A DNA stretch of 64,000 bases. Source: Squalus acanthias. Its lineage: Eukaryota. The notes below the pieces were generated by a model. The model ran no database searches. It saw only the letters and a list, made by a program, of their open reading frames with translations, and was not told the DNA's origin. Made by a program: the position numbers and the translations under genes. Positions within the stretch are counted from its first letter, which is position 1. Each line of letters opens with the position of its first letter. Below are positions 8,371 through 52,741 of the stretch, piece after piece. The DNA lies in the NCBI GenBank assembly GCA_030390025.1, contig CM059432.1:86678001-86742000 (forward strand). Reading direction: 5' to 3'.

Positions 8371-8849
8371 GGTGTCAGCTGTGGCTCAGTTGGTAGCACT
8401 CTTGTCTGTGAGTCAGAAGGTTGTGGGTTCAAGTCCCACTCCAGAGACTTGAGCACAAAATCTAAACTGACACTCCAGTGCAGTACTGAGGGAGTGCTGC
8501 ATTGTCGGAAGTGCCATCTTTCGATGAGACGTTAAGCCGAGGCCCCGTCTGCTCTCTTGGCTGGACATAAAAGATCCCATGACACTATTTCGAAGAAGAG
8601 CAGGGGAGCTATCCCCAGTGTCCTGGCCAATTTTATCCCTCAATCAACATAAAAAAAACAGATTATCTGGTCATTATCACATTGCTGTTTGTGGGAGATT
8701 GCTGTGCGTAATTTGGCTGCCGCGTTTCCTACATTACAACAGTGACTCCACTTCAAAAGTACTTCATTGGCTGTAAAGTGCTTTGGGACGTCCTGAGGTC
8801 GTGAAAGGCGCTATATAAATGTAAGTCTTTCTTTTTCTTTTTTCTTTTC
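8371..8849 (+). mobile_element. tRNA-derived Deu-domain SINE (SacSINE1/AmnSINE1-like), nested in an older copy (about 8335-9150)
   Basis: A/B boxes tggctcagttgg, ggttcaagtcc; Deu-like core gtgcagtactgagggagtgctgca...; L2-like tail aggcgctatataaat. Confidence 0.82.
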
Positions 8850-12665: not shown

Positions 12666-13316
12666 GTGTGCCGTCTTTCGGATGAGACGTTAAACCAAGG
12701 CCCCGTCTGCTCTCTCAGGTGGATGTAAAAGATCCCATGACACTATTCGAAGAAGAGCAGGGGAGTTATCCCCGGTGTCCTGGCCAATATTTATCCCTCA
12801 ACCACAAAACAAAAACAGATTATCTGGTCATTATCACATTGCTGTTTGTGGGAGCTTGCTGTGCGCAAATTGGCTGCCGCGTTTCCCACATTACAACAGT
12901 GACTACATTCCAAAAGTATTTAATTGGCTATAAAGCGCTTTGAGACGTCCGGTGGTCGTGAAAGGTGCTATATAAATGCAAGTCTTTCTTTCTTTCTTAC
13001 CTATCAGGAAAGGTTGAACAGGCTGGGTCTCTTTTCTCTAGAAAGGAGAAGACTGAGGGGTGACCTGATAGAGGTCTTTAAGATTATGAAAGGGTTTGAT
13101 AGGATAGACGTAGAGAAGATGTTTCCACTTGCAGACAAGAACAGAACTAGGGGCCACAGTATAAGATAGTCACTAATAAATCCAATCGGGAATTCAGGAG
13201 AAATATCTATTGAAGAGGGGTGGGAGGAGGCTCGTGTGGAGCATAAACACCGGCATGGATCTGTTGGATCGAATGGCCTGTTTCTGTGCTGTAAATACTT
13301 TGTAATACTTTGTAAC
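12666..13316 (+). mobile_element. 5'-truncated Deu-domain SINE (to about 12995) abutting a CR1 3' fragment
   Basis: Similar to 8510-8849, then ERLNRLGLFSLERRRLRGDLIEVFKI. Confidence 0.82.
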
Positions 13317-15635: not shown

Positions 15636-16430
15636 TGATGACTTTCTCGTGATAACCAAATATAAGTCCTCCAAGCCTTCCTGTGCTTCCAGCAACCAAC
15701 AATCTCAATTTCATGAAATATATATTCTCATTACAGTTGTTTTTGGCTGCAATACACAGAAAACAAAACGCTCCCAAAAGCAAAGTTCTCCTTTAATCTG
15801 CAAATGTACAATAGCAGTTTTTGACTGCGACATTGAACTCTATTTAAGTAAATCAGTAAATCTGTTCTGTGGCATTCTGGACCAGGTATTATGGTAGAGT
15901 ATTCGCAAAAAAGCGGTGTCCAGTCTAAATCAGGTCTTTTTAGGGCTAACATGACTAAGTATATTCTTCCTTTCTCTATTTAATGGTTTCCATGTGTCAC
16001 ACCATGTGCAGCCAAGATGCTGGGCAGATAACCTGCTCCAAGGAGTCTGCCAATACCACTCAAATTATCCACCAAGCAGTTCACAAGAGTGGTATGGCAT
16101 GTCTCTTCCTCCAATTCCTGGAGGAAAAATGGTCACAAACCAGCACTTGTGGGGTGACCTTTTCCCAGTCATTCAGAAGAACATGAGACTGCACCCTAGA
16201 CTTTGAATTTCCCTCTTTCCAATTGCTGGCAGAGGAAGTCTCGCATCTCTGCTCAGCACCTCATCCAACAAGACTGAACTTGCCACACAGGGAAATCACA
16301 GGCACAAACCTGTATCCCACTGCTCATTGTAGGTTGAGGAGATAGAATAAAATTATACATAGCATGTAATATTTGGTTTGAAACTGGGCTTGGAAAAGTC
16401 AGTAAAACTGAAGAAAAATGTTCAAAGGAT

Positions 16431-16672
16431 ACAGAAAATGCTGGAAATACTCAGCAGGTCAGGCAGCATCTGTAGAGAGAAACAGTTAACGTTTCAGGTC
16501 GATGACCCTTCGTCAGAACTGGTACTTAGTACCGTTTCTGATGAAGGGTCATCGACCTGAAACGTTGACTCTGTTTCTTTCTCTACAGATGCTGTCTGAC
16601 CTGCTGAGTGTTTCCAGCATTTTCTGTTTTTATTTCAGATTTCCAGCATCTGCAGTATTTTACTTTTGTATT
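16431..16672. mobile_element. Non-autonomous Penelope-derived hairpin insertion with hammerhead motifs
   Basis: Inverted arms of about 95 bp (16431-16525 / 16529-16627); flanked by 14-bp direct repeat aatgttcaaaggat (16417-16430, 16673-16686); same sequence as the 3' end of the Penelope at 41995-43075. Confidence 0.88.
16483..16521 (-). ncRNA. Minimal type I hammerhead ribozyme motif (Penelope type)
   Basis: Minus strand CAGUU-CUGACGA-AGGGUC-AUC-GACCU-GAAAC-GUU-AACUG: conserved core, stem II, palindromic ACGU stem III, 5-bp stem I. Confidence 0.72.
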
Positions 16673-22446: not shown

Positions 22447-24760
22447 AATGTCTTCAACAAGTATACCTCACCTTTCGAGGGTTGCAGGAGTTCCCACTAA
22501 GAAAGAGATGGGAGCAGACTGCAATGACAATCTGCATTCTTTTTGCTCATGACCAGCATCTTCAAGTATCACCTGTCCCTTGGTTGATCTTGACTTCTTG
22601 AGCAAGCGTTTAGGTGATCATTAAGTAAGTAGATTTTATTGCAATGGTCTCATGTAAAGTTTTGCAGCAGGCATTACAAATATAGCTGCTGCCATTATCC
22701 GATCCAGAATTCACGAGAAATGTTGAGCTTAGATTCTGACTCCTAATCTGTATTCAAATTGAAGCATTGTACTGGTGGTGAAACCATAAGGTTAATTGTG
22801 CAAATCTTTACTCCTGGCACAGAGCCTTGCAAGCGTGTAGGTACAGTAGTGGAGATAACTGTAGCCCCAATTTTCTGACCCATTTTTGCCCCTGGCAAAA
22901 TTTCACTCCCGAAGTGAAGCCTTGCAAAATTAACCCTTTATTTCATGTGGTCAGGATAATGCTCTGCAGAAAGACAGGTTCTGTACTGTTTGCAACTAAA
23001 TTTTTCTCAATTGGTGATAAGGGCCGACCTTTCTCAAAGGCTCAGTCCATGCTGTTTCCTGGGAGGGCATATGTGTAAACATCTCAGTCCAAGAAATATT
23101 GCTACAACAAACAAGTCCTGGGAGAACATGAAGCCATATTTTGGTTCCAACCTATTTGGATTTCTGGATTCTTAGATCCTGATACGAACATACGCACCCA
23201 TGAGCTGCGGGGCTGCTGATGTGCAGTGCCTGGACTGATCTGTATTAATGTTACAACCTTGATGTCATGCTTCATTAGAAATAAATTCAGTATCCGTCCA
23301 GGATGAAATCCACCTATACTCTTTCAGTCTACAAAGTAACAAGAGTAAAACCGTGAGATTTTCTGGCTGAGGTACTTTTCGGCAGCTTGCAAAAGTAGCA
23401 GGTAACCAAGTGCTCTCTGTTTTGCATAAGCCCAAGAAAAATTATCAGCATGTAATAAGATCTCTTCCTGGAATTTTCAGCAGTGCAGCGGGTGACTTGA
23501 AGGGTGGGAGCCACAGAGGCAGTAGAGGTTCATGTTTCTAATACTTGCTGTCTGGCTAACTAAATCATTTGAATCCCTAAAGCAAAGTCTTCTATTCTGG
23601 CCCAAAAAGCCATCCACCTGTCCTATTTTCACAGGCTGCACAATGACAACTTGCACTTAAATAGTTTATTAATCACGGCAAAAAGATCCAATGGTGCTTT
23701 ACTGGGGAGGGAGTGGGGGAAAGAGGGGCAGGTAGGATGTGATTTCACATAACATGCCTGGTAGAACAGGCAGATGCTGAAGATGCTTACCTTAATAAGC
23801 TACTTCAACATAATGACTCACTTTGTCTTGGACTGTTCCTGGAATGCATAGCAGAATTTACAGGTTGCAAGAGCTATAATCCATGGGGAAACAACAGCGA
23901 CATCACGTGAATATTCACTACAAGAAATGCCTTCATACAGATTTTGGAGCTATCACAGGTTTGACTTTATTTTAAATAAAGTTTATGAACGAAACCTTAC
24001 AGCCAGAGGAAGTGATACCACTAATGACATTATAAAGTTCTCACCTATGTGGCAGCACATGACAGATATGAATGACCGAGCACAGAACCGAAGAAATAAA
24101 TACTTGAGAATACTATAGTGGACACAGAAAGGTGAAACCATGTGACAGGATGAGATAATGTATTCAAACAGATATAGATGTCAGAAAATGTTATGTTGTC
24201 AGCTATGTTGGCTACAAGAAGAATTTCCCTCACCAAACAGAATTTGCATGCAACTGGTATGAACTCTCAACTTTTATTTAAATGTCCTGTAATTTAAACA
24301 ATCAAAGGAACTAAGTTATAATAGGTTTTCAGTGAATCTAGAAACCTCAACGTTCCATTAAATACTTTTTCAGAAATGTACTTTTCTAGCCTAAACAAAC
24401 ATTTTAATTCAGATGCCTTTAATTCAGAATTGCCTTTCTTTGGACTTTTTCACCTGCAGATTCTAAAAAGTGAGACACCAGTCACAAAATTGAAAATGTT
24501 TAAAAAAAAATTATTTTGGAGCAGCACAATACTCACAGCCTACAGCTAAAAATGTTTTTCTTATGTGGTTGAGAGACAAAAGATTCAGGCAAGACCTACA
24601 TTATAGATTTTGAAGGAAACTTTTTGTAACATTTCCTAAATATTGCATGAATTGCATCATACTTATTCCTATAACAAATGAATAAAAATATAATTTAATT
24701 ACAAATAAGTACTTCAATTAGCAATGATTTACCAATAAGTAAAAAGCTCACCAGACTAAC

Positions 24761-24896
24761 CTTTGATTGTACATGCCCTTAAAGTTATAGTTAGCTCTGT
24801 AGTTGAGGATTGGCTTTGGCTCCAATGGTCTATAGATAGCAGGCTCTCCCCTCTTCATTGCAAGACCATTCAGCTCTACAGTCGGCGTTATGCTAC
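24761..24896 (-). CDS. stau2: Staufen homolog 2, coding exon (first half of split dsRBD2), 136 nt, phase 1 to 2
   Basis: ttgtgttgcag|GTAGC...CAAAG|GTTAGT; encodes (G)SITPTVELNGLAMKRGEPAIYRPLEPKPILNYRANYNFKGMYNQ(R); phase matches the 160-nt exon. Confidence 0.96.
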
Positions 24897-24994
24897 CTGC
24901 AACACAAAATCCTTTTTTATCAATAACTTCTAAAAACATGACTAAACAATATAACATTTTTATTCGCACTCTTGGTTGAAATCGACAGTTATTC

Positions 24995-28841: not shown

Positions 28842-30116
28842 GCAAAACTTGCATTTATGTAGTGGCTTTCGTGACCCCAGGACGTCCCAAAGTGCTTCAC
28901 AGCCAACAAAAGTACTTTTGAAAAGTAGTCACTATTGTAATGCAGGAACCGCCGCAGTGAATTTGTGCACAGCAAGCTCGCAGCAACGTGATCATGACCA
29001 GATCATGGGGGAAAAATTCAGTTGATTGGCGCCTCGGGGCGCAAAGCAACTAGTGCCCGAGCGCGGCGATGTTTGCGCCGCTTGCGAAATTGACCAGACA
29101 TTTTGCGGCGTTGTTAAACACTACCACCACGATTTCCTGCGCCCGCAGATCATGATATCAGTCGAGCGTGCAACGCCCCAGTAGCTCCCTGGACCGGATA
29201 TTGAGTGGCGCCCCCTGCCTTTCCGCCTGCCACTAGCAACGACAGGTGGAGGGGAACATTTTGCAGTCGGGAAGGGGCTGGGGGAGCGCTATTTAAAGGC
29301 GGCCGCTTCCTGCCTTTTTTGTCGGCAAAATTTTTGCTACACGCAGGTTGAGACACGTCTGGAAAGATTTAACACTGTCTTAAGGAGTTTTGGCCCTTAG
29401 CACCACTTTTGAGGTTCCTAAGCGCCGAGCTCTTTCCCTGGGCCTATCCATTGGTGGTTCCAGTAGAATTGATGTACAGGTCTCTCCAAGCCGAGATTCA
29501 AGGCTGCAATGAGCAGGGTGTGGCTGGACAGCAACATTGACCTTCCCCTTTAAGAACTGGCCGGCGCCAGTCAGTCTGTGTTCCATTGCTAACTGACATC
29601 ACCTGAGCTTCGCCAGCGCTCTGAGGTAGCGCCTCGCTCCTCGACGTTAGCGCCTTAAGACAGGTGTATAGCACCTGATTTCGCTCTCCAATCACCTCCG
29701 GGGCGATGGAGGCCAAGTTTGCAGTCGGAGGCGATAATTAGTGGTGGGCGGTAAACTTTGCGCCCGACCGATAACAGCGCCCCAAACGGGGCGATATCGA
29801 ATTTCCCCCCCCCCCCCCGCCCCCATGTCTTTTAGTGATGTTGATTAACGGATAAATATTGGCCAGGGTACCGGGGATAACTCCCCTGCTCTTCTTCAAA
29901 ATAGTGCCATAGGATCTTTTACGTCCACCTGAGAGCGCAGACGGGGCCTCGGTTTAACGTCTCATCTGAAAGACGGCACCTCTGACAGTGCAGCTCTCCC
30001 TCAGTACTGCACTGGAGTGTGAGCTTAGATTTTTGTGTTCAAGTCTCTGGAGTGGAACTTCAACCCACAACGTTCTGACTCCGAGGCAAGAGTGCTACCC
30101 AACTGAGCCATAGCTG
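28842..30116 (-). mobile_element. Deu-domain SINE split by a MITE
   Basis: Reverse complement of 8371-8849 at about 28842-29006 and 29824-30116. Confidence 0.82.
29007..29823. mobile_element. Non-autonomous Harbinger-type element nested in a SINE
   Basis: Ends GGGGGAAAAATTC / GAATTTCCCCC..., probable CAT TSD, very CpG-rich, splits the SINE at 28842-30116. Confidence 0.78.
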
Positions 30117-40554: not shown

Positions 40555-40577
40555 TGTACCAGTAAATGCACCAGTAC

Positions 40578-40737
40578 CTGGATTATTATTCATAATTGTT
40601 TTTGGTGGCCGTGGGGATGGTTTTGGGAGAGCAGTCTCATTCAATGCTTTGGCTGCAGCAGCATGTTGAGCCTTTTTAATACTGCTTCCTTCTGCTTCCC
40701 AGGTTTGATCTCCAAGGGTCAACTGTACAGTGAAGAT
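40578..40737 (-). CDS. stau2: Staufen homolog 2, coding exon (rest of dsRBD1 and linker), 160 nt, phase 0 to 1
   Basis: cttttcatgcag|ATC...CCAG|GTACTG; encodes IFTVQLTLGDQTWEAEGSSIKKAQHAAAAKALNETALPKPSPRPPKTIMNNNP(G); continues the previous exon in frame. Confidence 0.96.
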
Positions 40738-41994
40738 CTGCATGAAAAGAAAATCAAAATCAATTACGTCAATGATTGGGGTTTACCATTTTCTATAAAC
40801 ATCTTAAATGGTCCATCAGAGCTTAACACAGCAATCTCACCAGGGCATATACAAAGTGTCTCCAAATCCTACATTTTTTCATCTACCTTTTCAATAAAAA
40901 GATTCTTTATCTATTTCACAGAATTAAACTACAAAGAGCCAGATACTTTTAGAAGTAGAAGTTAGTTTCCAATTAATATTCACAGAACATAATTCTTGTC
41001 CTTGATCATTCTCTGCATAAATAATTGGTTTTAAACTATTTCAAATTTTGCATTGTGTTGAAATAACCTGTGTATGCAAAGTATTCTCCATTTGTTAAAT
41101 ACAGCAATGTGATGAAATAGATGTTTCAAAGGAAAGGCTAGCTAAATGATATGTTGAGCTACTGAAAATCAGTTTCTACCCAACTTATGAAACCAAGGCT
41201 TTAGTTACATATCATGCAACTCAGATCACGCCAGGTTTTTTTTCAAAATGTACTGTTTAAGCTACATTTACCTCCTATCAGGACAGTTCTGATTATCAAT
41301 AATGAACCGTGCATGCTCACAATACCCACAGTTCACATCACCTGTTACTAGCGGCAAGCTCCAAGCAAGTCAAATTCAGGTCTGAAACAAAGCCAATTTA
41401 CATAACTGAATCTAGAAGCATCAGACCTATTAAAAATAAGGTGCCACGCACATTGAGACAATTTAACAATATTTGTCTGCGTGCTGGATAGGCACCACCA
41501 TTTTCAAAGTGTTTAGACATTCATACTTTGTTGGCTTTTGCCAGTACCTAAAAGGGAATTATTATCCAGTAAGTGCTCCTTTTCCTTAAGATATTTTGAT
41601 TAGTTGTGTTGAGATTTCCCCAATCCTATACACCCACAGTGTTAGTTTTTGTGGTGATCTCTATATTAATTTGGCGGTATTTGTGGGCTACCAAGACTGA
41701 AAACCACCATATAAATCCCTCTAATGGCACCAGAGATTTAATAAAACCTCTACTGTTGAACTGGCTTTCAAATGCAAGTAAAATATAAAAAAAGCAATGG
41801 AAGGCAATGAGGGGAAAAAATGGTTGCAGTCCTGCAGATTTCATTCCAAACTGTTGATTGAGGGATAAATGTTGACCAAGATACCAGGAAAATTCCCCTG
41901 CTCTTCTTCAAATAGTGCCATAGGGTAGCACCAGAATAAATCACACTTAAAAATCGTACGTTACATAAATTATCATTACACCTTATAATTAGTA

Positions 41995-43075
41995 GAAAAG
42001 CAAAATACAATGGATGCTGGAAATCTGAAATAAAAACAGAAAGTGCTGGAAATACACAGCAGGTCAGGCAGCATCTGTGGCGAGAGAAACAGAGTTAACG
42101 TTTCAGGTCGATGACCCTTCGTCAGAACTGGAAAAGTTAGAGATATAACAGGTTTTAAGCAAGTGCAGAGGCAGGGAAAGGGGGAAGGGGAGAAAAGAAC
42201 AAAAGGGAAGGTCTGTGATAGGGTGGAGGGCAGGAGAGATTAAATGGCAAATGGTATGATTGTACAAGGCAAAAGGAGATGGTAATGAGACAAGTAAAGC
42301 AACAAAAGATGGGTCTAGAAGAGGTGTAAATGTTGAGTCCAGGAGGCTGTAAAGTGCCTAATCGAAAGATGAGGTGCTGTTCCTTGAGCTTATGTTGTGC
42401 TTCATTGGAACAGTGTAGGAGGCCGAGAACAGAGATGTCAGAGTGGAAGTGGAATGGAGAATTAAAGAGACAGGCGACCGGAAACTCGGGATCACGCTTA
42501 CGGACTGAATGGAGGTGTTCTGCAAAGCGGTCATCCAATCTGCGTTTGGTCTCCCCAATGTAGAGGAGACCGCATTGTGAGCAGTGAATACAGTATACTA
42601 AATTGCAAGAAGTACAAGTAAATCACTGTTTCACCTGGAAGGAGAAGCCCTGGATGGTGGGAAGGGAGGAGGTAAAAGGACAGGTGTTGCATCTCCTGCA
42701 CTTGCACAGGAAGGGGAGAGGGTGTTGGGGGTGATTGAGGAGTGGACCAAGGTGTCACGAAGGGAACAGTCCCTTCGGAATGCTGAAAGGGGAGGGGAGG
42801 GGAAGATGCGTTTGGTGGTGGGATCACGCTAGAGGTGGCAGAAATTGCGGAGGATGATCCGTTGAATGTGGAGGCTGGTGGGGTGGAAGGTGAGGACAAG
42901 GGGAACCCTATCGTGGTTCTGGGAGGGAGGGGAAGAGGTGAGAGCAGAAGTGCGGGAAATAGAACAGACACGGTCGAGGGCGCTGTCCACCATGGTAGTG
43001 GGGAATCCTCGGTTGAGGAAAAAGGAAGACCTATTGGAAGCACTAGTATGGAAGGTGACATTGTCAGAACAGAAT
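41995..43075 (-). mobile_element. 5'-truncated Penelope-like retroelement (GIY-YIG remnant and 3' terminal repeat)
   Basis: Minus-strand translation gives LVYCI.CSQCGLLYIGETKRRL.DRFAEH...KEQHLIFRLGTLQP.GLN, typical of the Penelope GIY-YIG endonuclease; frameshifted. Confidence 0.88.
42093..42129 (-). ncRNA. Minimal type I hammerhead ribozyme motif (Penelope type)
   Basis: Minus strand AGUU-CUGACGA-AGGGUC-AUC-GACCU-GAAAC-GUU-AACU, downstream of the GIY-YIG remnant on the same strand. Confidence 0.72.
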
Positions 43076-45429: not shown

Positions 45430-46680
45430 TGTCTTGGCTCCTGGTCCGGCAATGCCTCGATTTTAAAATTCTCATCATTGTTTTCAAATCTCTCCATGGC
45501 TTTGCCCCTCCCTATCTCTGTAATCTCCTCCAGCCCTATAACACTTTCAAATCTCTTCACTCCTCCAATTCTGGCCTCTTGCGCATTACCGATTTCAATC
45601 ACTCCACACCTTTGGTGGCTGTGCCTTCAGCTGCCGAGCCCTAAGCTCTGGAAATCCCTCTCTAAACCTCTCTGCCTCTCTACCTCTCTTTCCTCCTTTA
45701 AGATGTTTCTTAAAACCTACCTCTTTGACCAAGCTTTTGGTCATCTGCCCTAATATCTCTTTAGGTGACTCGGTGTCAATAGTTTGTTTCATAGCACTCC
45801 TGTGGTGCGCTTTACTACATTAAAGGCACTATATAAATGCAAGTTGTCGTTGTCAGATATTTGTCTAATATTCTATTTTGTAGCAGTTGTTCTACAACTG
45901 GGTACCTTGCTGGGACCACTTCAGAGGGCATTAAGAGTCAACCACATCTTCTGGGTCTGGAGTAACTTGAAGGTCAGAATGGGGAGTGGCATGTTCCCTT
46001 TCTTGAAGAACATTATTGAACCACTTGGATTTTTAGGGCAATCTAGCAATTTTCTGAATTAAATTTTGTAACATGTCGTGATTTGAACTCTCAATCGCGG
46101 CTGCTAGTCCAGTACCATAACCGGTTTGTGCCTTTAACGTAGAAAAATGCCTCAAGGCACTTCACAAAGGCACAAGGAAAATTAGGTGGGTTTTAAGGAC
46201 AGTCTTAAACAAGGAGAAGGAGGTAGAGGAGCAAGGGATTTAATAACGGAATTCCAGAGCGTGCAGCCTAGGCAGCTGAAAGCACGCTGCGAATGGTGGG
46301 GTGAAGTGAAGTGAAGAGGGGGATACACAAGTGGCTAGAGTTAAAAAAACAGATGGTTGGGCTACAGGAGATTATAGAGATAGGGAGAGACAAGGCAATG
46401 AAGGAATTTAAACATAAGGATGAGAATTTTAAACTTAAGACGTTGGGGGAATGGGAGCCAATGTAGGTCAGCAAGAACAGGGGTGATGGGTGAGTGGGAC
46501 TTGGGGCAGGATAGGATAACACACAGTAGAGTTTTGGATGAGCTAAAGTTTATCAGGATGCAGGATGGGAGGTTGGCCAAGAGAGCCCTGGAATAGTTGA
46601 GTCTGGAGATGATAAAAGCATGAATGTGGGTTTCAGCATCAGATGGGCTAAGGTAGGGGCGGAGGTGGTAATTAGCCTGG
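45430..46680. mobile_element. Two L2 3' fragments in opposite orientation (about 45430-45850 plus; 46130-46680 minus)
   Basis: HWL....FKIL...FK.LHG.AP.YL motifs; L2 tail ggcactatataaatgcaagttg. Confidence 0.8.
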
Positions 46681-46767
46681 GAATTACACTGAGGAATAAC
46701 ATACAAAAACTCTTAACAAGTCCATATTGATTTTTTCCCCACTATTTTAATAGCAGCATTATCCTAT

Positions 46768-47172
46768 CAGTGTTAGTTTGGTTCAGTTGGTAGCACTCTC
46801 ACCTGAGTCAGAAAACTGTGGGTTCAAGCCCCACTATAGCCGCAGCACATAATCTAGACCAAGACTGCAGCATTCTCTCAGTACTGCCCTGAATTGTCGG
46901 AGGTGCCGTCCTTCAAATGTCTAAACAATCTCGTCTGTCCTTTCAGGCGCATATAATAGATCCTAGGACACTACTCAAGGAAGAGCACCTCTAGCATCCG
47001 TGTTAACACACATCTCGCGTCCTTCATTTCATTGCTGTCTCTGGGACCTTGCTGTGCGCAAACAGGCTGCCACATTTATCTATAAAAACAGTGACTACAC
47101 TTCAGAAAGAATTAATTTGCTCTGAAACTCTCTGAGGACATGAAATGCGCTATGTAAATGCTAATTCTTTCT
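46768..47172 (+). mobile_element. Diverged Deu-domain SINE
   Basis: tRNA-like head, ggaggtgccgtc core, gcgctatgtaaatg tail. Confidence 0.72.
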
Positions 47173-47574
47173 TAAAACCAAGGGGCAATTCTCATGTTAA
47201 AATAGCAGACAGAGGAATTTGAAACAAACGTGCTAAGCATTCATATGATAATATCGCTCAGTGTAATTTCCAGGTAATACAGGAAACTTTCGTTTATCCG
47301 GCATCGACGGGACCGGCGTGGTGCCGGTTTATCGAAAGTACCGGATAACGGAGAGTTATATCTACCGAGGCTATTTTTAACATAAAAAAATCAAGAAATG
47401 TGCAGTATACAGTATTTGGGTACTCACCTACAGAATGTTGTGTTAAATGGATAGTGGAAGATGCTTGATTAAGTACAGTACTGCCAGTTGAGGGTAATCC
47501 ATAACTCTTTAATTACTTAACAGTAAAACAAAACTTATAAACGACTGTCTACAGTACTGTAGTTGACTGTACAC

Positions 47575-49347
47575 TTATTCCGAGTCATCTGGTTCATCAG
47601 AAATATCCGTATCCGTGCCAGCTGGGTCATCAGGATCACGCAGTTCCACCGATGCCACAGATTCTTCAGGCACTTCCACTGCTGCGACTCTTTTGGAAGC
47701 TTTCTTAAACATGTTGCGGATGTCGGTTTGCTTAGTGGACTCTTGCCTTTTCTGTAGAAAGGTGGAATGCAGAATATGGAGTTGCATAACTTCTTGTGCA
47801 GTGTAGCAATTCTGCCTTTCAGCAAATTTGAGGATTGTAGAAAATCCTTCTGCAGCTTTAGCCCAAGAAATCTTCTCTTCTTCAGAAATCTCATCCTCTT
47901 CACTTTCCATCTCGCTTTCCTTTTCTTTCTTTGGATTCAAAACATTCTCAATTATTTCATCATCACTTAGCATATGCACAACACCAACTTCTCTATCTGC
48001 ATCAACCCACTGCTCGATATCACTTTCACTGAGGTGACGTAGAGGGTTTGCTGCGCCTGCATTTTTCACCATTCCAGCCATTTCCATTATTGTACTCTTC
48101 TTGGGACGAACACTGAACCCATGAAATTCCTCCTCTGAAGAAGAACCTTCAGCAAACATTACAGAAGGCCACAATTTGCGCCAGGCTTGCCTCAGAGTGT
48201 GACCTTTCACCAATTTCCAGGAACATGCAACATTATAGATGGCATCTTTAATATTGTATTCCTTCTGCAATTCTTGAATATTGTCATCTTGGCTTATCAG
48301 TTTACGTAGGAAGTCTTTCTTGTAATGACACTTCAGATTTTGGATAACGCCCTGGTCCATGGGTTGGATGAGAGAAGTTACATTTGGTGGCAAATAAATG
48401 GTGAAAATATTTCCCGAAACCAACTGGGATTCATGCGGATGGGCTCTGCAATTATCAAGCAATAAAATGCATTTGCTATCTTCAGGTTTCCCTATTTTGC
48501 GGAAATGTTCCCTCCTAGATGGACCAAAAATATGATGGAACCAATCGGAGAAGATTTCCTTATCCATCCAAGCATTTTTTTGAGCTTTGTACTCAACAGG
48601 TAAGTGCCTCACATTTTTAAATGCACGGGGATTTTTATACTTCCCGATAACAAGAAGTTTAACCCGGTGTGATCCAGCAGTGTTCGCACATGTTAGCACG
48701 GTTACACAATCTTTATTTTTCTTGCAACCTGAAGTATTAGCCTCACTAGCCCCAGCAAGCGTTGATTCTGGCAAAAACCTCCAAAACAAGCCAGTTTCAT
48801 CGGCATTGTATATCTGTGCTGGCGACAAATCATGTTGCTGCACAATCCGATTGAAATAATCGCAGTATTCTTCTGCGGCTTCGTGATCAGCTGATTTCTT
48901 CTCCCTGGAAATATCGAGTCGTCGTATCCCGTGCCGTAACTTGAAGCACGTTAGCCATCCATCGGAGAAAGCACACTTGTCAGTGAGCTCCATCCTTACA
49001 TAGAAATCCTTCGCTTTCTCGATTAGCATGGGTCCGGAAATTGGAACACCCTCTGAACGCTTAAGAGAAAACCATTCACAAAGCACGGTATCCAGCTCTT
49101 CAAGCTTAGGCTTACGAAGCGTACGCTGTTTCTCTACACTCTTGCATGTCTCCGAGCTTGAATAAAACTTGAGCAGCTTATCCTTCTGCGATTTGATGTC
49201 GTAGATTGTTGACGAACCGATTTTGAATTCATTCATAATGTTGATACGCTTCTCTCCCCTTTCTAGTCGTTGGCATATCTCGATTTTCTGTTTTAAAGTT
49301 AAGACCACTCTCTTCCTTTTGCTTGGACCAGCTTTTGGGAATTCCAT
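47575..49347 (-). CDS. Tigger/Jerky/CENP-B-like DDD transposase, 590 aa from first ATG
   Basis: N-terminal HTH ([14 protein letters not shown]), CENP-B-type HTH (WF...GPMLIEKA...SDGWL..FK.RHG), catalytic [19 protein letters not shown] with 32 residues between the 2nd and 3rd Asp, acidic C-terminal tail; no stops or frameshifts. Confidence 0.95.
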
Positions 49348-49386
49348 AATGCAAGATGGAGGAGATAATTGCCGATGAAGATGGAA

Positions 49387-49795
49387 AGACACACAGAACA
49401 ATGGTGGCTAGGAAGAGACTACCAGCAGCGTGGCAGACACACAGTAAAATGGTGTATCAGAAGAGACTACAGTACCAGCAGCGTGGCAGACACACAGCAA
49501 AATGGTGTATCAGAAGAGACTACAGTACCAGCAGCGTGGGAGACACACAGCAAAATGGTGTATCAGAAGAGACTACAGTACCAGCAGCGTGGCAGACACA
49601 CAGTAAAATGGTGTATCAGAAGAGACTACAGTACCAGCAGCGTGGGAGACACACAGCAAAATGGTGTATCAGAAGAGACTACAGTACCAGCAGCGTGGGA
49701 GACACACAGCAAAATGGTGGATCAGAAGAGACTACCAGCATCGTGGGAGACACCCAGCAAAATGGCCGATCCGAAGAGACTCCAGGCAGCGCGGG
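49387..49795. repeat. 53-bp tandem minisatellite inside the Tigger 5' leader
   Basis: Unit starts (agacac) at 49387, 49435, 49488, 49541, 49594, 49647, 49700, 49748: periods 48,53,53,53,53,53,48. Confidence 0.93.
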
Positions 49796-49921
49796 AGAAT
49801 CAAATCCTGCTACTGCAATGTTTCGGACTTGCAACAGCGCCAGGAGGCCGAGTAGTGGCACTTTTGAAAAGTACCCCTACTGACTAAATCGGCGTTCGCG
49901 GACTCGGACTCGGACTCGGGA

Positions 49922-50030
49922 TCGGCAACATTGCCGGTTATTTGAGAGGAGTTTTCGGAGCACTTGGCGTTCGCGGAGACTCGACTGCGACTCGGCAACA
50001 TTGCCGGTTATTTGAGAGGAGTTTTCGGAG
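49922..50030. repeat. Subterminal 39-bp direct repeat pair in Tigger
   Basis: tcggcaacattgccggttatttgagaggagttttcggag at 49922-49960 and 49992-50030; contains TGCCGGTTA resembling the inner TIR motif TGCCGGATA. Confidence 0.88.
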
Positions 50031-51191
50031 GATGATTTTTGCCGGTTAAGCGAAAATTCCGGATATTTGGGTGCCGGATAAACGAAAGTTTCCTGTAATG
50101 GTTTATGAATATTTAGATAAAAATTACTGGAATCTTTCAACAAGCAAGCTTTACAGATACACAAATGGGACACATGGACATTCTTCCCATTATCAAAATT
50201 AGTACAATATTAGATAACAGAAAGTCACGGTAAAATCTAGTGAGGCATTTAAATTATTGACCAGATAAGTTACACCTTCTGGACACAGGTACAGAGATAT
50301 AAACAGTTTTTCAAAAGAATCCACTGAGGCTTTATCACTTCTGAGTTTGATGTTATCTCCTCCTATTATACACAGATGACAAACTGAAAACCATTATTTG
50401 TATGACACTTTAGGAAGGAGAGTCAGTGCAGTGTGTTGAGGGGATTGGGAATGCTCGTATTGAAATTGTTTAACGAAACAAAGTTGAGAGGAATCCTTGG
50501 GCACAATGAGCCTGATCAGAGGAAATCTTTCACCAAGTTGATAGAGAGTTTTAAAGCCAATTGAAGTTTAATACTCAAAGACAATGTTTAATTATTTGAA
50601 TTTGCATACAGTGACGGCAGGGCCATATTAAAGGAACTCAGAGGCTGATGAGAACGTGTCATTTATTAAATTTGGTTAAAATCAGTAAAATTTGAATCTG
50701 AAAAAATTGTATACAAGTGGACAAGTCATAACTTAAATGGCCACTGCTTTTTAGGGGAGATGGGGAGAATTAATTTAAATGTTTTCTACTAATTGATGTG
50801 CACTTAATTGAACTTAAGAGGAGGGAAAAACAACTGGAAATAAACTACTAGAAAAACACTATAACCATCCAAAGATCTATACATCCATCACAAAGTCAAG
50901 TATCTATTCACTGATAATGGTGCATTTAATTTGAGACATATCAGATCACACAGATAAAAGCGTGCCTTGCATTAATGTCCTTATTCATTTTACAAGACCA
51001 TCTAGAAGTCAAGATTATTTCATCTTCAATATTCAATTATTAGACAATGGCACCAAGATCACGATAACAGAATTATAAAAGGGGAAATCCTGGATTGAAT
51101 GAGTATTACTTTCTAAATCAATATGCAAAGAGAAGTAATGCTACAAAATTCTAATAAAAACTTTAAAAAAAAAATGCTATTCAACTATTAC

Positions 51192-51305
51192 CTTGGCATG
51201 GGCAGGCCCTCTTTCATTCAGAAGCTTGTACTGGGGCTGGATTCTGTTGAAACGGGCTAACTCATTCACCAGACACATTGGGGTTTTCTCTTTGGGGTTT
51301 GCCAT
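51192..51305 (-). CDS. stau2: Staufen homolog 2, first coding exon (start of dsRBD1)
   Basis: Encodes MANPKEKTPMCLVNELARFNRIQPQYKLLNERGPAHAK, closely matching the vertebrate STAU2 N-terminus as I recall it; donor AAG|GTAATA after 51192 (phase 0); candidate acceptors put the exon start at 51322 (ttgcag|) or 51311 (ttccag|). Confidence 0.96.
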
Positions 51306-52741
51306 GTTATCCTGGAAAGAAACTGCAACCAACACATTTAAGATAACATACCACGTAACAATGCCCAGCTTTGGAGAAAATAAATATTCACTTTGCAAAT
51401 AAAAAAATATGACTCACACTTCACATTGCTTTAACTTATTGCCTGTACAAGACCTTGGTTAGGCCCCATCTAGAATACAGTGTCCAGTTCTGATCCAGAA
51501 AATGACCATGAAAGCAGCTGGATTGTTGTAAAAACCTAACTGGTTCACTTATGAACTTCAGGGAAGGGGACCTGCCACCCCAGCAGGTCTGGCCTCCAGT
51601 TCCACACTATGTGGTTGACTCTTAATGCCCTCAGGATGGGCAATAAATATTTCTTTGGCTGTGTCGCCCACATCCCAAGAATAAATATTAAAAAAAAACT
51701 TTATATGTCAGTTAAATTATTTCAATTAACTGTAAATGCCAGAACCATCAATGCGACTTTAAAAAAGTAACAAAAAACACCATCAGATTCTCAGCGCTAA
51801 ACAATAAATCAAAATCCAGGTTATGAAAATAAATTGGAACCAGTAGCAAGGCTTTTTTGTCCCAAAATGGATGGTTTCATGTGCACGTTTTAAATGAGAT
51901 GGCACTGCGTCATCTCGCATGTAAATTTATCACTCCTCCCAATCCTAACATATGCATAAACTAGGATGATATCCCCACATTTTAACTAATGCCCCAGTTG
52001 TCAGAGTCAGAGATATTTCTAGTGGTACAGGTCGTACTTTAATCAGAGCTCTGTACATGCATACTTAAACGTGTTCACCAGCTTCTGACATTTGATGAAA
52101 TTTCTAACATGAGACAGCTGATAGAATAGTATGCTTTCTAATATTAAAATTTTACAAAGTCAGACCACCTAAATTCTTTTTAAAACTGCACGTTTTGATA
52201 TGGAAACATCGGCTCTGCAGTAGCTATAATTAAACAAGTGACATGTAGCACTTGAGCTTTAAAACAACCCTTCCTTTACTTTTCTATTTTCTACCCTCCT
52301 TACCTGAAGGCATTACCTCTTGCTGGGATACAGTTCCACAGTCAGCAGAAGCCATACCAAAGTGTACCAAAGTAGTTGCTCTTCACGTGTGAGCCTAGAT
52401 AGCAATTGTCAGTTGGTCATTCGTCTGCAGAGTTTTACACTGAAACCTGATTTTGTTCCCACTTGACATCCAAACACACTTTCCAGTTGGTGTCACTTAG
52501 TAATAATCAGGAGTGGGAACCTTGGCTGATTTGTTCCCCTTTCTAAACGAGGAGCAGTGAAACCAATTACAGAACTTTTAGGGACCTTCTAGTCTGTGCA
52601 ACTTAGTACCCTTCTCTGGGTGAGACTTAAAGGCAGTCTCACTATCGACACCAAACTGCTGATTTTTCAAGAATTTTTACATGATAGATACGAATAAGGA
52701 AGGCCATTGTTCCATCTTAGTTCAAGCACCATTTTAAAAAT

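What the first reader, a model, noticed from the sequence alone, without database searches (positions are those of the whole stretch)
47280..50095. Intact, recently inserted Tigger/pogo transposon among otherwise dead elements
Seen: perfect 24-bp TIRs, TA TSD, retained CpGs, and an unbroken 590-aa ORF with DD32D triad; every other element in the window is frameshifted or truncated. Two Cys residues sit where pogo transposases usually have Arg (GWLTCFK, KDCVT), both explicable by CpG transitions, so this copy may be starting to decay. Inference: a young, possibly active or horizontally acquired family; retained TIRs argue against an old domesticated JRK/TIGD gene.
Basis: partly seen in the sequence, partly recalled or inferred. 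Interest (0 to 1): 0.72.

Follow-up and report, generated by a model that had tools for sequence, protein, structure and literature searches.

The report
Young shark Tigger transposon, JRK relative
This is a complete but already mutating copy of an abundant cut-and-paste jumping gene, sitting in an intron of the STAU2 gene of what appears to be a shark; it is ordinary as a transposon, and of modest interest because its family is a close relative of the one that gave mammals their JRK gene.

Summary
Observation confirmed: a 2,816-bp element with perfect 24-bp TIRs, TA on both sides, CpG o/e 0.76 (rest of window 0.33) and a 590-aa CENP-B_N/HTH_Tc5/DDE_1 transposase with DD32D. It lies sense in a STAU2 intron. 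Public runs show a dispersed family (roughly hundreds of ORF copies, at least four deletion derivatives, about 98% identity across runs), so it is not a domesticated single-copy gene. This copy is probably not functional: 14 of 33 listed ORF variants are private to it, 13 of them nonsynonymous, several at near-invariant residues (R74, Y90, R214, A223, V275, V278). Its age is roughly 4-13 My on a borrowed shark clock, and an open frame at that age is expected without selection. No sign of horizontal transfer: best protein 71%, and the tree groups it with carpet sharks, near coelacanth/reptile Tig1-like elements and mammalian JRK (weak support). New member of the Tigger family. The scan did not report this element before; it did report a related, probably domesticated copy in a carpet-shark genome. 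Activity and empty site untested.

The parts
47278..47279 (.). TA target-site duplication, left
47280..47303 (.). 24-bp TIR at the 3' end of the transposase sense; three further CCGG-core motifs follow within 65 bp (inferred transposase-binding repeats)
47420..47427 (-). consensus splice donor downstream of the stop codon, followed by a T-rich tract and AG (possible small 3' UTR intron; use not shown)
47575..49347 (-). 590-aa Tigger transposase ORF, open but with 12 private amino-acid changes
48181..48711 (-). DDE_1 match (aa 213-389); catalytic Asp codons at 48799-48801 (D183, just before the Pfam match), 48454-48456 (D298), 48355-48357 (D331)
   Evidence: RNase H-like fold in the model
48919..49101 (-). 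HTH_Tnp_Tc5 DNA-binding domain (aa 83-143)
49165..49320 (-). CENP-B_N DNA-binding domain (aa 10-61)
49408..49410 (-). candidate weak splice acceptor 20 open codons upstream of the ATG, in frame with the ORF and in phase with the upstream STAU2 exon (use not shown)
49420..49785 (.). 7 x 53-bp tandem array in the 5' region
49891..50030 (.). two about 70-bp subterminal repeats, each with a TIR-like CCGG-core motif
50072..50095 (.). 24-bp TIR at the 5' end of the transposase sense
50096..50097 (.). TA target-site duplication, right
51192..51311 (-). host STAU2 exon (start of first dsRNA-binding domain), 1.1 kb upstream of the element on the same strand; ends in phase 0
40576..40740 (-). next STAU2 exon (approximate limits); the element lies in the intron between this and the previous exon

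Best explanation
A full-length copy of a multi-copy Tigger (pogo superfamily) DD32D transposon family that inserted at a TA in a STAU2 intron some millions of years ago and has drifted neutrally since. Mechanism of the family (inferred from pogo/Tc1-mariner biology and the fold, not assayed): the two N-terminal helix-turn-helix domains bind the inner TIR motif and its subterminal repeats, the DDD domain cuts both ends and joins them to a TA, repair duplicates the TA, and the same enzyme moves internally deleted copies in trans. This copy still has usable ends but its own protein is probably impaired. The family is most simply a vertically inherited shark branch of the Tigger lineage that also holds coelacanth, turtle and crocodilian Tig1-like elements and mammalian JRK.
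For: Shown: TIR, TA, domains, triad; model pLDDT 81 whose best matches are CENP-B and Mos1 transpososomes. Multi-copy: in run X2 a flank contig identical to the window (509 bp, 0 other letters, 1 gap) has depth 9.4 and a single ORF contig depth 5180; TIR ends run into different flanks; loose ends join the left part to the right part at four places, one of them in 4 of 4 runs. Neutral decay: 14 of 33 listed ORF variants are private, 13 nonsynonymous and 1 synonymous (neutral share of synonymous 0.27, P 0.075), 6 are CpG decays; conserved residue found in 114, 110, 117, 116, 104 and 115 of 120 homologues at positions 74, 90, 214, 223, 275, 278. An ORF survives 14 random substitutions without a stop with P 0.59, both TIRs stay perfect with P 0.56-0.68. 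Kinship: groups with Chiloscyllium and Rhincodon proteins 99/96; best hits 62-71% are coelacanth, turtles, alligator, carpet sharks; TIR core matches the reptile Tig1-like rows of Gao 2020 Table S1.
Against: No genome was held, so copy number is a depth ratio from contigs, which the tool warns is not a copy number; 18 of 58 variant rows were hidden. 'Private' is relative to run majorities: the copy may come from a minor subfamily and be younger. The empty site was not seen. The join of the shark clade to the JRK clade has only 41/81 support, with an unnamed protein inside; the AU test does not reject it (p 0.29) but does not show it. The organisms holding the element are coded, so a non-shark holder is not excluded. 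Loss of function is inferred from conservation, not assayed. The host being a shark is inferred from relatives and earlier notes.
Confidence: 0.8

Rival explanations
1. The family is still transposing in this host, driven by other copies that carry the conserved residues; this copy is a passenger.
For: Long contigs in X6, X10, X12 cover the ORF without gaps and carry the conserved residues; none of the 33 listed variants makes a stop. Different runs have different majority haplotypes, as expected if amplification went on in separate lineages. Divergence under 2% is the range that PMC9219625 takes as possibly current activity.
Against: Eight coded organism labels hold 0.53-0.68 of the words, which fits a burst older than their split; shark clocks are slow; no identical copies or insertion polymorphism were shown.
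Confidence: 0.15
2. The family entered the shark lineage recently by horizontal transfer.
For: Low divergence among copies; not seen among full-length proteins of annotated sharks above 71%; Tigger transfers are reported in animals.
Against: No protein above 71% among the 120 listed near-length hits or above 66% among the 120 listed shorter hits; nearest tree neighbours are shark proteins; host repeats of the flank are also covered to some depth in all 4 runs laid.
Confidence: 0.08
3. The copy is being captured by STAU2: the upstream exon splices to an acceptor in front of the transposase and makes a STAU2(1-38)-transposase protein.
For: Same-strand intronic position; an acceptor-like TAG 20 open codons before the ATG, in phase with the exon; acceptors just upstream of the ORF are the usual route to fusions; KRAB fusions exist among relatives (P0010, P0066).
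Against: The acceptor is weak and being in frame has a 1 in 3 chance; no RNA evidence; the ORF shows no purifying selection; sense intronic Tiggers are normally spliced out in mammals; none of the 120 listed STAU2 hits carries a DDE domain.
Confidence: 0.05
4. A domesticated single-copy JRK-like gene kept by selection.
Against: Perfect TIRs, a dispersed multi-copy family, 13 of 14 private changes nonsynonymous.
Confidence: 0.02

Closest known systems
Tig1-like / Tig1-like1 Tigger elements of turtles and crocodilians (Gao et al. 2020, PMC7386202, Table S1: Chpi-Tig1-like1, Pesi-Tig1-like1, Apsp-Tig1-like, Almi- and Alsi-Tig1-like)
   Same: TA TSD, 22-26-bp TIRs with the same inner core, 2.3-2.8 kb, 586-597-aa transposase in most rows, DD32D in the intact ones, Cys at position 134; 63-65% protein identity to proteins of the same species and length
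   Different: TIR starts CAGGA, not CAGTA/CAGCA; identity is too low for one family; they are listed at 4-9 copies, this family appears far more abundant; 53-bp array
Coelacanth 'jerky protein homolog' family (P0002 cluster; a matching sequence is filed under JRK in Gao Table S2, and the text calls such fish sequences pseudogenes)
   Same: best hit, 66% over 98% of the length; 15 members on several chromosomes, so also a multi-copy family
   Different: separate branch, nearer to JRK in the tree; its ends were not examined here
Mammalian JRK and its presumed source family Tigger15a (Codebook, PMC13538051 supplement and bioRxiv 2024.11.11.622097)
   Same: same domains, DD32D/E spacing, 63-68% identity in the DNA-binding region; JRK still binds the terminal repeats of Tigger15a
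   Different: JRK is a host gene under purifying selection, with a short deletion after the third catalytic position; identity with Tigger15a itself could not be tested (no Dfam)
Carpet-shark JRK-like proteins (Rhincodon XP_048474049, Chiloscyllium GCC36032)
   Same: sister group in the tree, 99/96; 63-71% identity
   Different: long stem branch, clusters of 1-2 members; reported in an earlier scan note as a probably domesticated copy with decayed TIRs (locus not checked here)

Membership tests
Tigger (pogo superfamily, Gao 2020) | TA target-site duplication | tested here: met
   other insertion sites also end in TA
Tigger (pogo superfamily, Gao 2020) | TIR of at most 40 bp, element 1.2-5.2 kb | tested here: met
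   24 bp, 2,816 bp
Tigger (pogo superfamily, Gao 2020) | CENP-B_N plus HTH_Tnp_Tc5 DNA-binding domains | tested here: met
Tigger (pogo superfamily, Gao 2020) | DDE_1 domain with DD29-36D triad | tested here: met
   DD32D
Tigger (pogo superfamily, Gao 2020) | placement in the Tigger clade against the other five pogo families | tested here: inconclusive
   nearest relatives are JRK and proteins matching Tigger-sheet rows by species and length; no tree with pogoR, Passer, Lemi, Mover, Fot was built
Reptile Tig1-like1 family (same family?) | same terminal pentamer and over 80% identity | tested here: not met
   CAGGA against CAGTA/CAGCA; 63-65% protein identity: a sister family
Tigger15a | similarity to the Dfam consensus and JRK motif match in the TIR | not testable with these tools
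   no Dfam or motif matrix was available; only text passages were read
Domesticated JRK/TIGD gene | single copy without intact TIRs | tested here: not met
Domesticated JRK/TIGD gene | purifying selection on the locus | tested here: not met
   13 of 14 private changes nonsynonymous; small sample
Domesticated JRK/TIGD gene | syntenic orthologues across species | not testable with these tools
   no animal genomes held; flanks not covered in X6, X10, X12
Active autonomous element | open ORF, triad and perfect TIRs | tested here: met
Active autonomous element | conserved transposase residues retained | tested here: not met
   six near-invariant positions changed
Active autonomous element | identical copies, insertion polymorphism, excision activity | not testable with these tools
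   contigs only, no assembly or assay
Host-transposase fusion (Cosby et al., bioRxiv 2020.05.07.082677) | same-strand intronic insertion with an in-frame acceptor upstream of the ORF | tested here: met
   sequence only
Host-transposase fusion (Cosby et al., bioRxiv 2020.05.07.082677) | spliced fusion transcript under selection | not tested
   no RNA run was laid; the single read-laying run went to four large runs

The most novel reading that the evidence does not exclude
The family is still mobile in this shark, making it a living, abundant transposon of the lineage that hosts have captured repeatedly (mammalian JRK, a carpet-shark gene, KRAB fusions). Natural competent copies would then allow a direct comparison of a working transposase and its ends with JRK, which still binds its ancestral TIRs. 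An added possibility (about 0.05 by itself) is that this copy is exonised into a STAU2-transposase fusion through its in-frame acceptor.
Probability: 0.15. Interest if true: 0.55.

Novelty: new member of a known kind. Interest (0 to 1): 0.3.

Why it matters
As found, it adds a young and apparently abundant Tigger family to sharks, where the 4 chondrichthyan rows seen in one survey table list 1-41 copies of elements with other TIRs. It also suggests that many 'jerky homolog' or 'JRK pseudogene' entries in fishes are transposon copies. Because human JRK still binds the ends of its source transposon, a little-diverged family from this lineage with complete ends is useful material for studying how a transposase becomes a transcription factor. 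The coelacanth and reptile families serve the same purpose and lie closer to JRK, so the shark family is not unique. If active, it would be one of very few active vertebrate Tiggers (PMC9219625 names two candidate species).

Tried and rejected
Own genome: none held, so no direct copy count, no empty site, no synteny. No second copy or MITE of this family elsewhere in the window (blastn and tblastn). Rfam: 0 matches in the window. Flanks are not covered in X6, X10, X12, which says nothing on orthology. The laid stretch stopped before the 53-bp array, so the right junction and an empty-site joint could not appear. First structure model from 24 sequences was too poor to use (pLDDT 54); the second shows the fold but does not test the substitutions. 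Atlas search of the exon gave only a lead of 0.85; the name STAU2 rests. C134 as CpG decay: rejected (no variant listed at that codon among the 40 rows shown). Searches of the scan's notes by this protein and by both element ends found nothing. Literature searches and searches of two survey supplements for this TIR start did not show this family; Repbase and Dfam could not be searched, so it may be catalogued there.

Full report
Observation. The element spans 47280-50095 (2,816 bp). Its 24-bp TIRs are perfectly complementary and each is flanked by TA. One minus-strand ORF, 47575-49347, encodes 590 aa with CENP-B_N, HTH_Tnp_Tc5 and DDE_1 above Pfam cut-offs and D183, D298, D331, that is DD32D. 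CpG o/e is 0.76 against 0.33 in the rest of the window and at most 0.58 in any other slice of equal size. The other 9 long ATG ORFs are at most 274 aa; 5 of the 8 scanned are reverse-transcriptase or endonuclease fragments. A model from 126 sequences (pLDDT 81) matches CENP-B and Mos1 transpososomes best. Of 11 CCGG sites in the element, 9 lie at the two ends, in or near the TIRs, in a similar context; I read these as transposase-binding repeats by analogy with pogo (recalled, not tested).

Setting. The window is the STAU2 locus. An exon at 51192-51311 (minus) gives 95-100% identity to STAU2 in the 120 listed hits, and further exons lie near 40576-40740 and 24760-24897. The transposon sits in the intron between the first two, on the same strand. 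The host is taken to be a shark: its nearest tree neighbours are shark proteins and earlier notes on this genome say so (unchecked).

Copy number. No genome was held. Of 24 listed public runs, 20 hold the element or part of it and 14 hold half or more of its words; shares of 0.53-0.68 fall on eight coded organism labels, equal to about 1.2-2% divergence. I laid four runs on 45900-49385. In X2 a 509-bp flank contig with no other letter has depth 9.4, so this run is the same or a very close species, while one 91-bp ORF contig has depth 5180: a ratio of several hundred, rough because contig depth is not a copy count. TIR ends run into different flanks after TA, and a variant TIR occurs. Loose ends at 47382, 47424, 47526 and 47556 continue with letters from the element's far end, that is at least four internally deleted derivatives, the one at 47526 in 4 of 4 runs. 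X6, X10 and X12 hold the ORF on gap-free contigs with 15 of 884, 16 of 1118 and 26 of 1305 letters different. This is a dispersed family, not a single host gene.

State of this copy. One search showed 40 of 58 variant rows; 33 lie in the ORF and all 33 were analysed. In 14 of them all four runs carry another letter than the window: 13 nonsynonymous (12 residues), 1 synonymous, 6 of the 14 CpG decays. The neutral share of synonymous changes is 0.27, so there is no excess of silent change (P 0.075 for at most 1). The changes hit positions where 120 homologues have R74 (114), Y90 (110), R214 (117), A223 (116), V275 (104, the rest A or I) and V278 (115). The other 19 variants separate subfamilies; 14 are nonsynonymous too, but mostly conservative or toward the common residue. 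C134 is not: 14 of 120 homologues have it, among them coelacanth, turtles, alligators and carpet sharks. An open frame is no proof of function: 14 random substitutions leave it free of stops with P 0.59, and both TIRs stay perfect with P 0.56-0.68. With the whale shark-zebra shark synonymous clock (0.061-0.111 over about 50 My, PMC13100897, passages) the copy is 7-13 My old, or 4-7 My without CpG sites. Hidden rows would raise this, descent from a minor subfamily would lower it, and the host's own clock is unknown; shark mutation rates are low (PMC10587355, passages).

Relatives. The near-length search scored 8,000 candidates, found 1,168 hits and listed 120; the best are coelacanth (66%), turtles (64-66%), alligator (63%), Chiloscyllium (63%) and a partial Rhincodon protein (71%), then marsupial JRK (58%). 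The shorter-length search listed 120 of 461, none above 66%. In a 30-row tree chosen from these hits the window protein joins the two carpet-shark proteins (99/96). That group, with one unnamed protein, lies beside the coelacanth, crocodilian, turtle and mammalian JRK group with weak support (41/81); holding the 14 vertebrate rows together is not rejected (AU p 0.29). This fits vertical descent and gives no sign of recent transfer, though the coded runs cannot exclude a non-shark holder.

Comparison with the literature. Gao et al. 2020 (PMC7386202; parts 1-4 of 7 read, supplement rows searched) define Tigger by TA, short TIRs, CENP-B_N/HTH_Tnp_Tc5 and DD29-36D, derive JRK (DD32D/E) from Tigger, and call JRK-like sequences of cartilaginous and lobe-finned fish pseudogenes. 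Their Table S1 lists turtle and crocodilian Tig1-like elements with the same TIR core, 4-9 copies where given. Codebook reports that human JRK binds the terminal repeats of Tigger15a, its best Dfam match (bioRxiv 2024.11.11.622097 passages; PMC13538051 supplement passages, one file not searched, motif figure not seen; PMC11601254 passage). Diaby et al. 2022 (PMC9219625; passages, section 3.2, four chondrichthyan rows of Table S1) find Tigger activity low in vertebrates and list shark and ray Tiggers with other TIRs. My searches (TIR terms) did not show this family; Repbase and Dfam were out of reach.

Mechanism and rivals. Shown: anatomy, dispersed copies, deletion derivatives, neutral-looking private changes. 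Inferred: cut-and-paste into TA by a DDD transposase that binds the end repeats, trans-mobilisation of the short copies, and impairment of this copy's protein (confidence 0.8). The family may still be active through other copies (0.15). Recent horizontal entry is unsupported (0.08). Domestication of this locus is contradicted (0.02). One further reading: a weak acceptor at 49408-49410 lies 20 open codons before the ATG, in phase with the upstream STAU2 exon, the arrangement that Cosby et al. describe for host-transposase fusions (bioRxiv 2020.05.07.082677, passages); sense intronic Tiggers are normally kept intronic in mammals (PMC10901741, passages), and no RNA was examined (0.05).

Verdict. 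A real, well-preserved but decaying copy of a young Tigger family; a new member of a known kind. Interest 0.3, mostly for its kinship with JRK.

Noticed in passing
window 51192-51311, 40576-40740, 24760-24897 (minus): Three exons of the host STAU2 gene; the window lies largely within its introns.
   Followed up: yes
window 46676-47274: Small MITE-like element with 23-bp imperfect TIRs, ending 3 bp left of the Tigger's TA, with a SINE-like repeat (about 46760-47175, similar to 8372-8522 and 12837-12990) nested in it.
   Followed up: partly
window 47420-47427 (minus): Consensus splice donor with a T-rich tract and AG behind it in the transposase 3' UTR; the Apalone Tig1-like row of Gao Table S1 shows the same donor motif at a similar distance from the TIR (compared by eye). 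Possibly a conserved small intron.
   Followed up: partly
window about 29010-29800: CpG-rich insertion with G-rich/C-rich terminal repeats, apparently splitting a SINE; looks like a younger non-autonomous DNA element (class not tested).
   Followed up: no
window 16416-16642: About 225-bp palindromic repeat, with related copies near 42000, 54500, 55250 and 62800.
   Followed up: no
run X10, loose end at 47363: A contig with the element's left end runs on for 255 or more unrelated letters: perhaps a derivative carrying other sequence or a nested insertion.
   Followed up: no
proteins P0006, P0002: Two coelacanth families fall apart in the tree; P0006 groups with turtles and mammalian JRK (99/97) on a short branch, which may reflect old parallel lineages or an old transfer.
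   Followed up: no
proteins P0010, P0066: KRAB-transposase fusions from this broader lineage in Pelodiscus and Geotrypetes.
   Followed up: no
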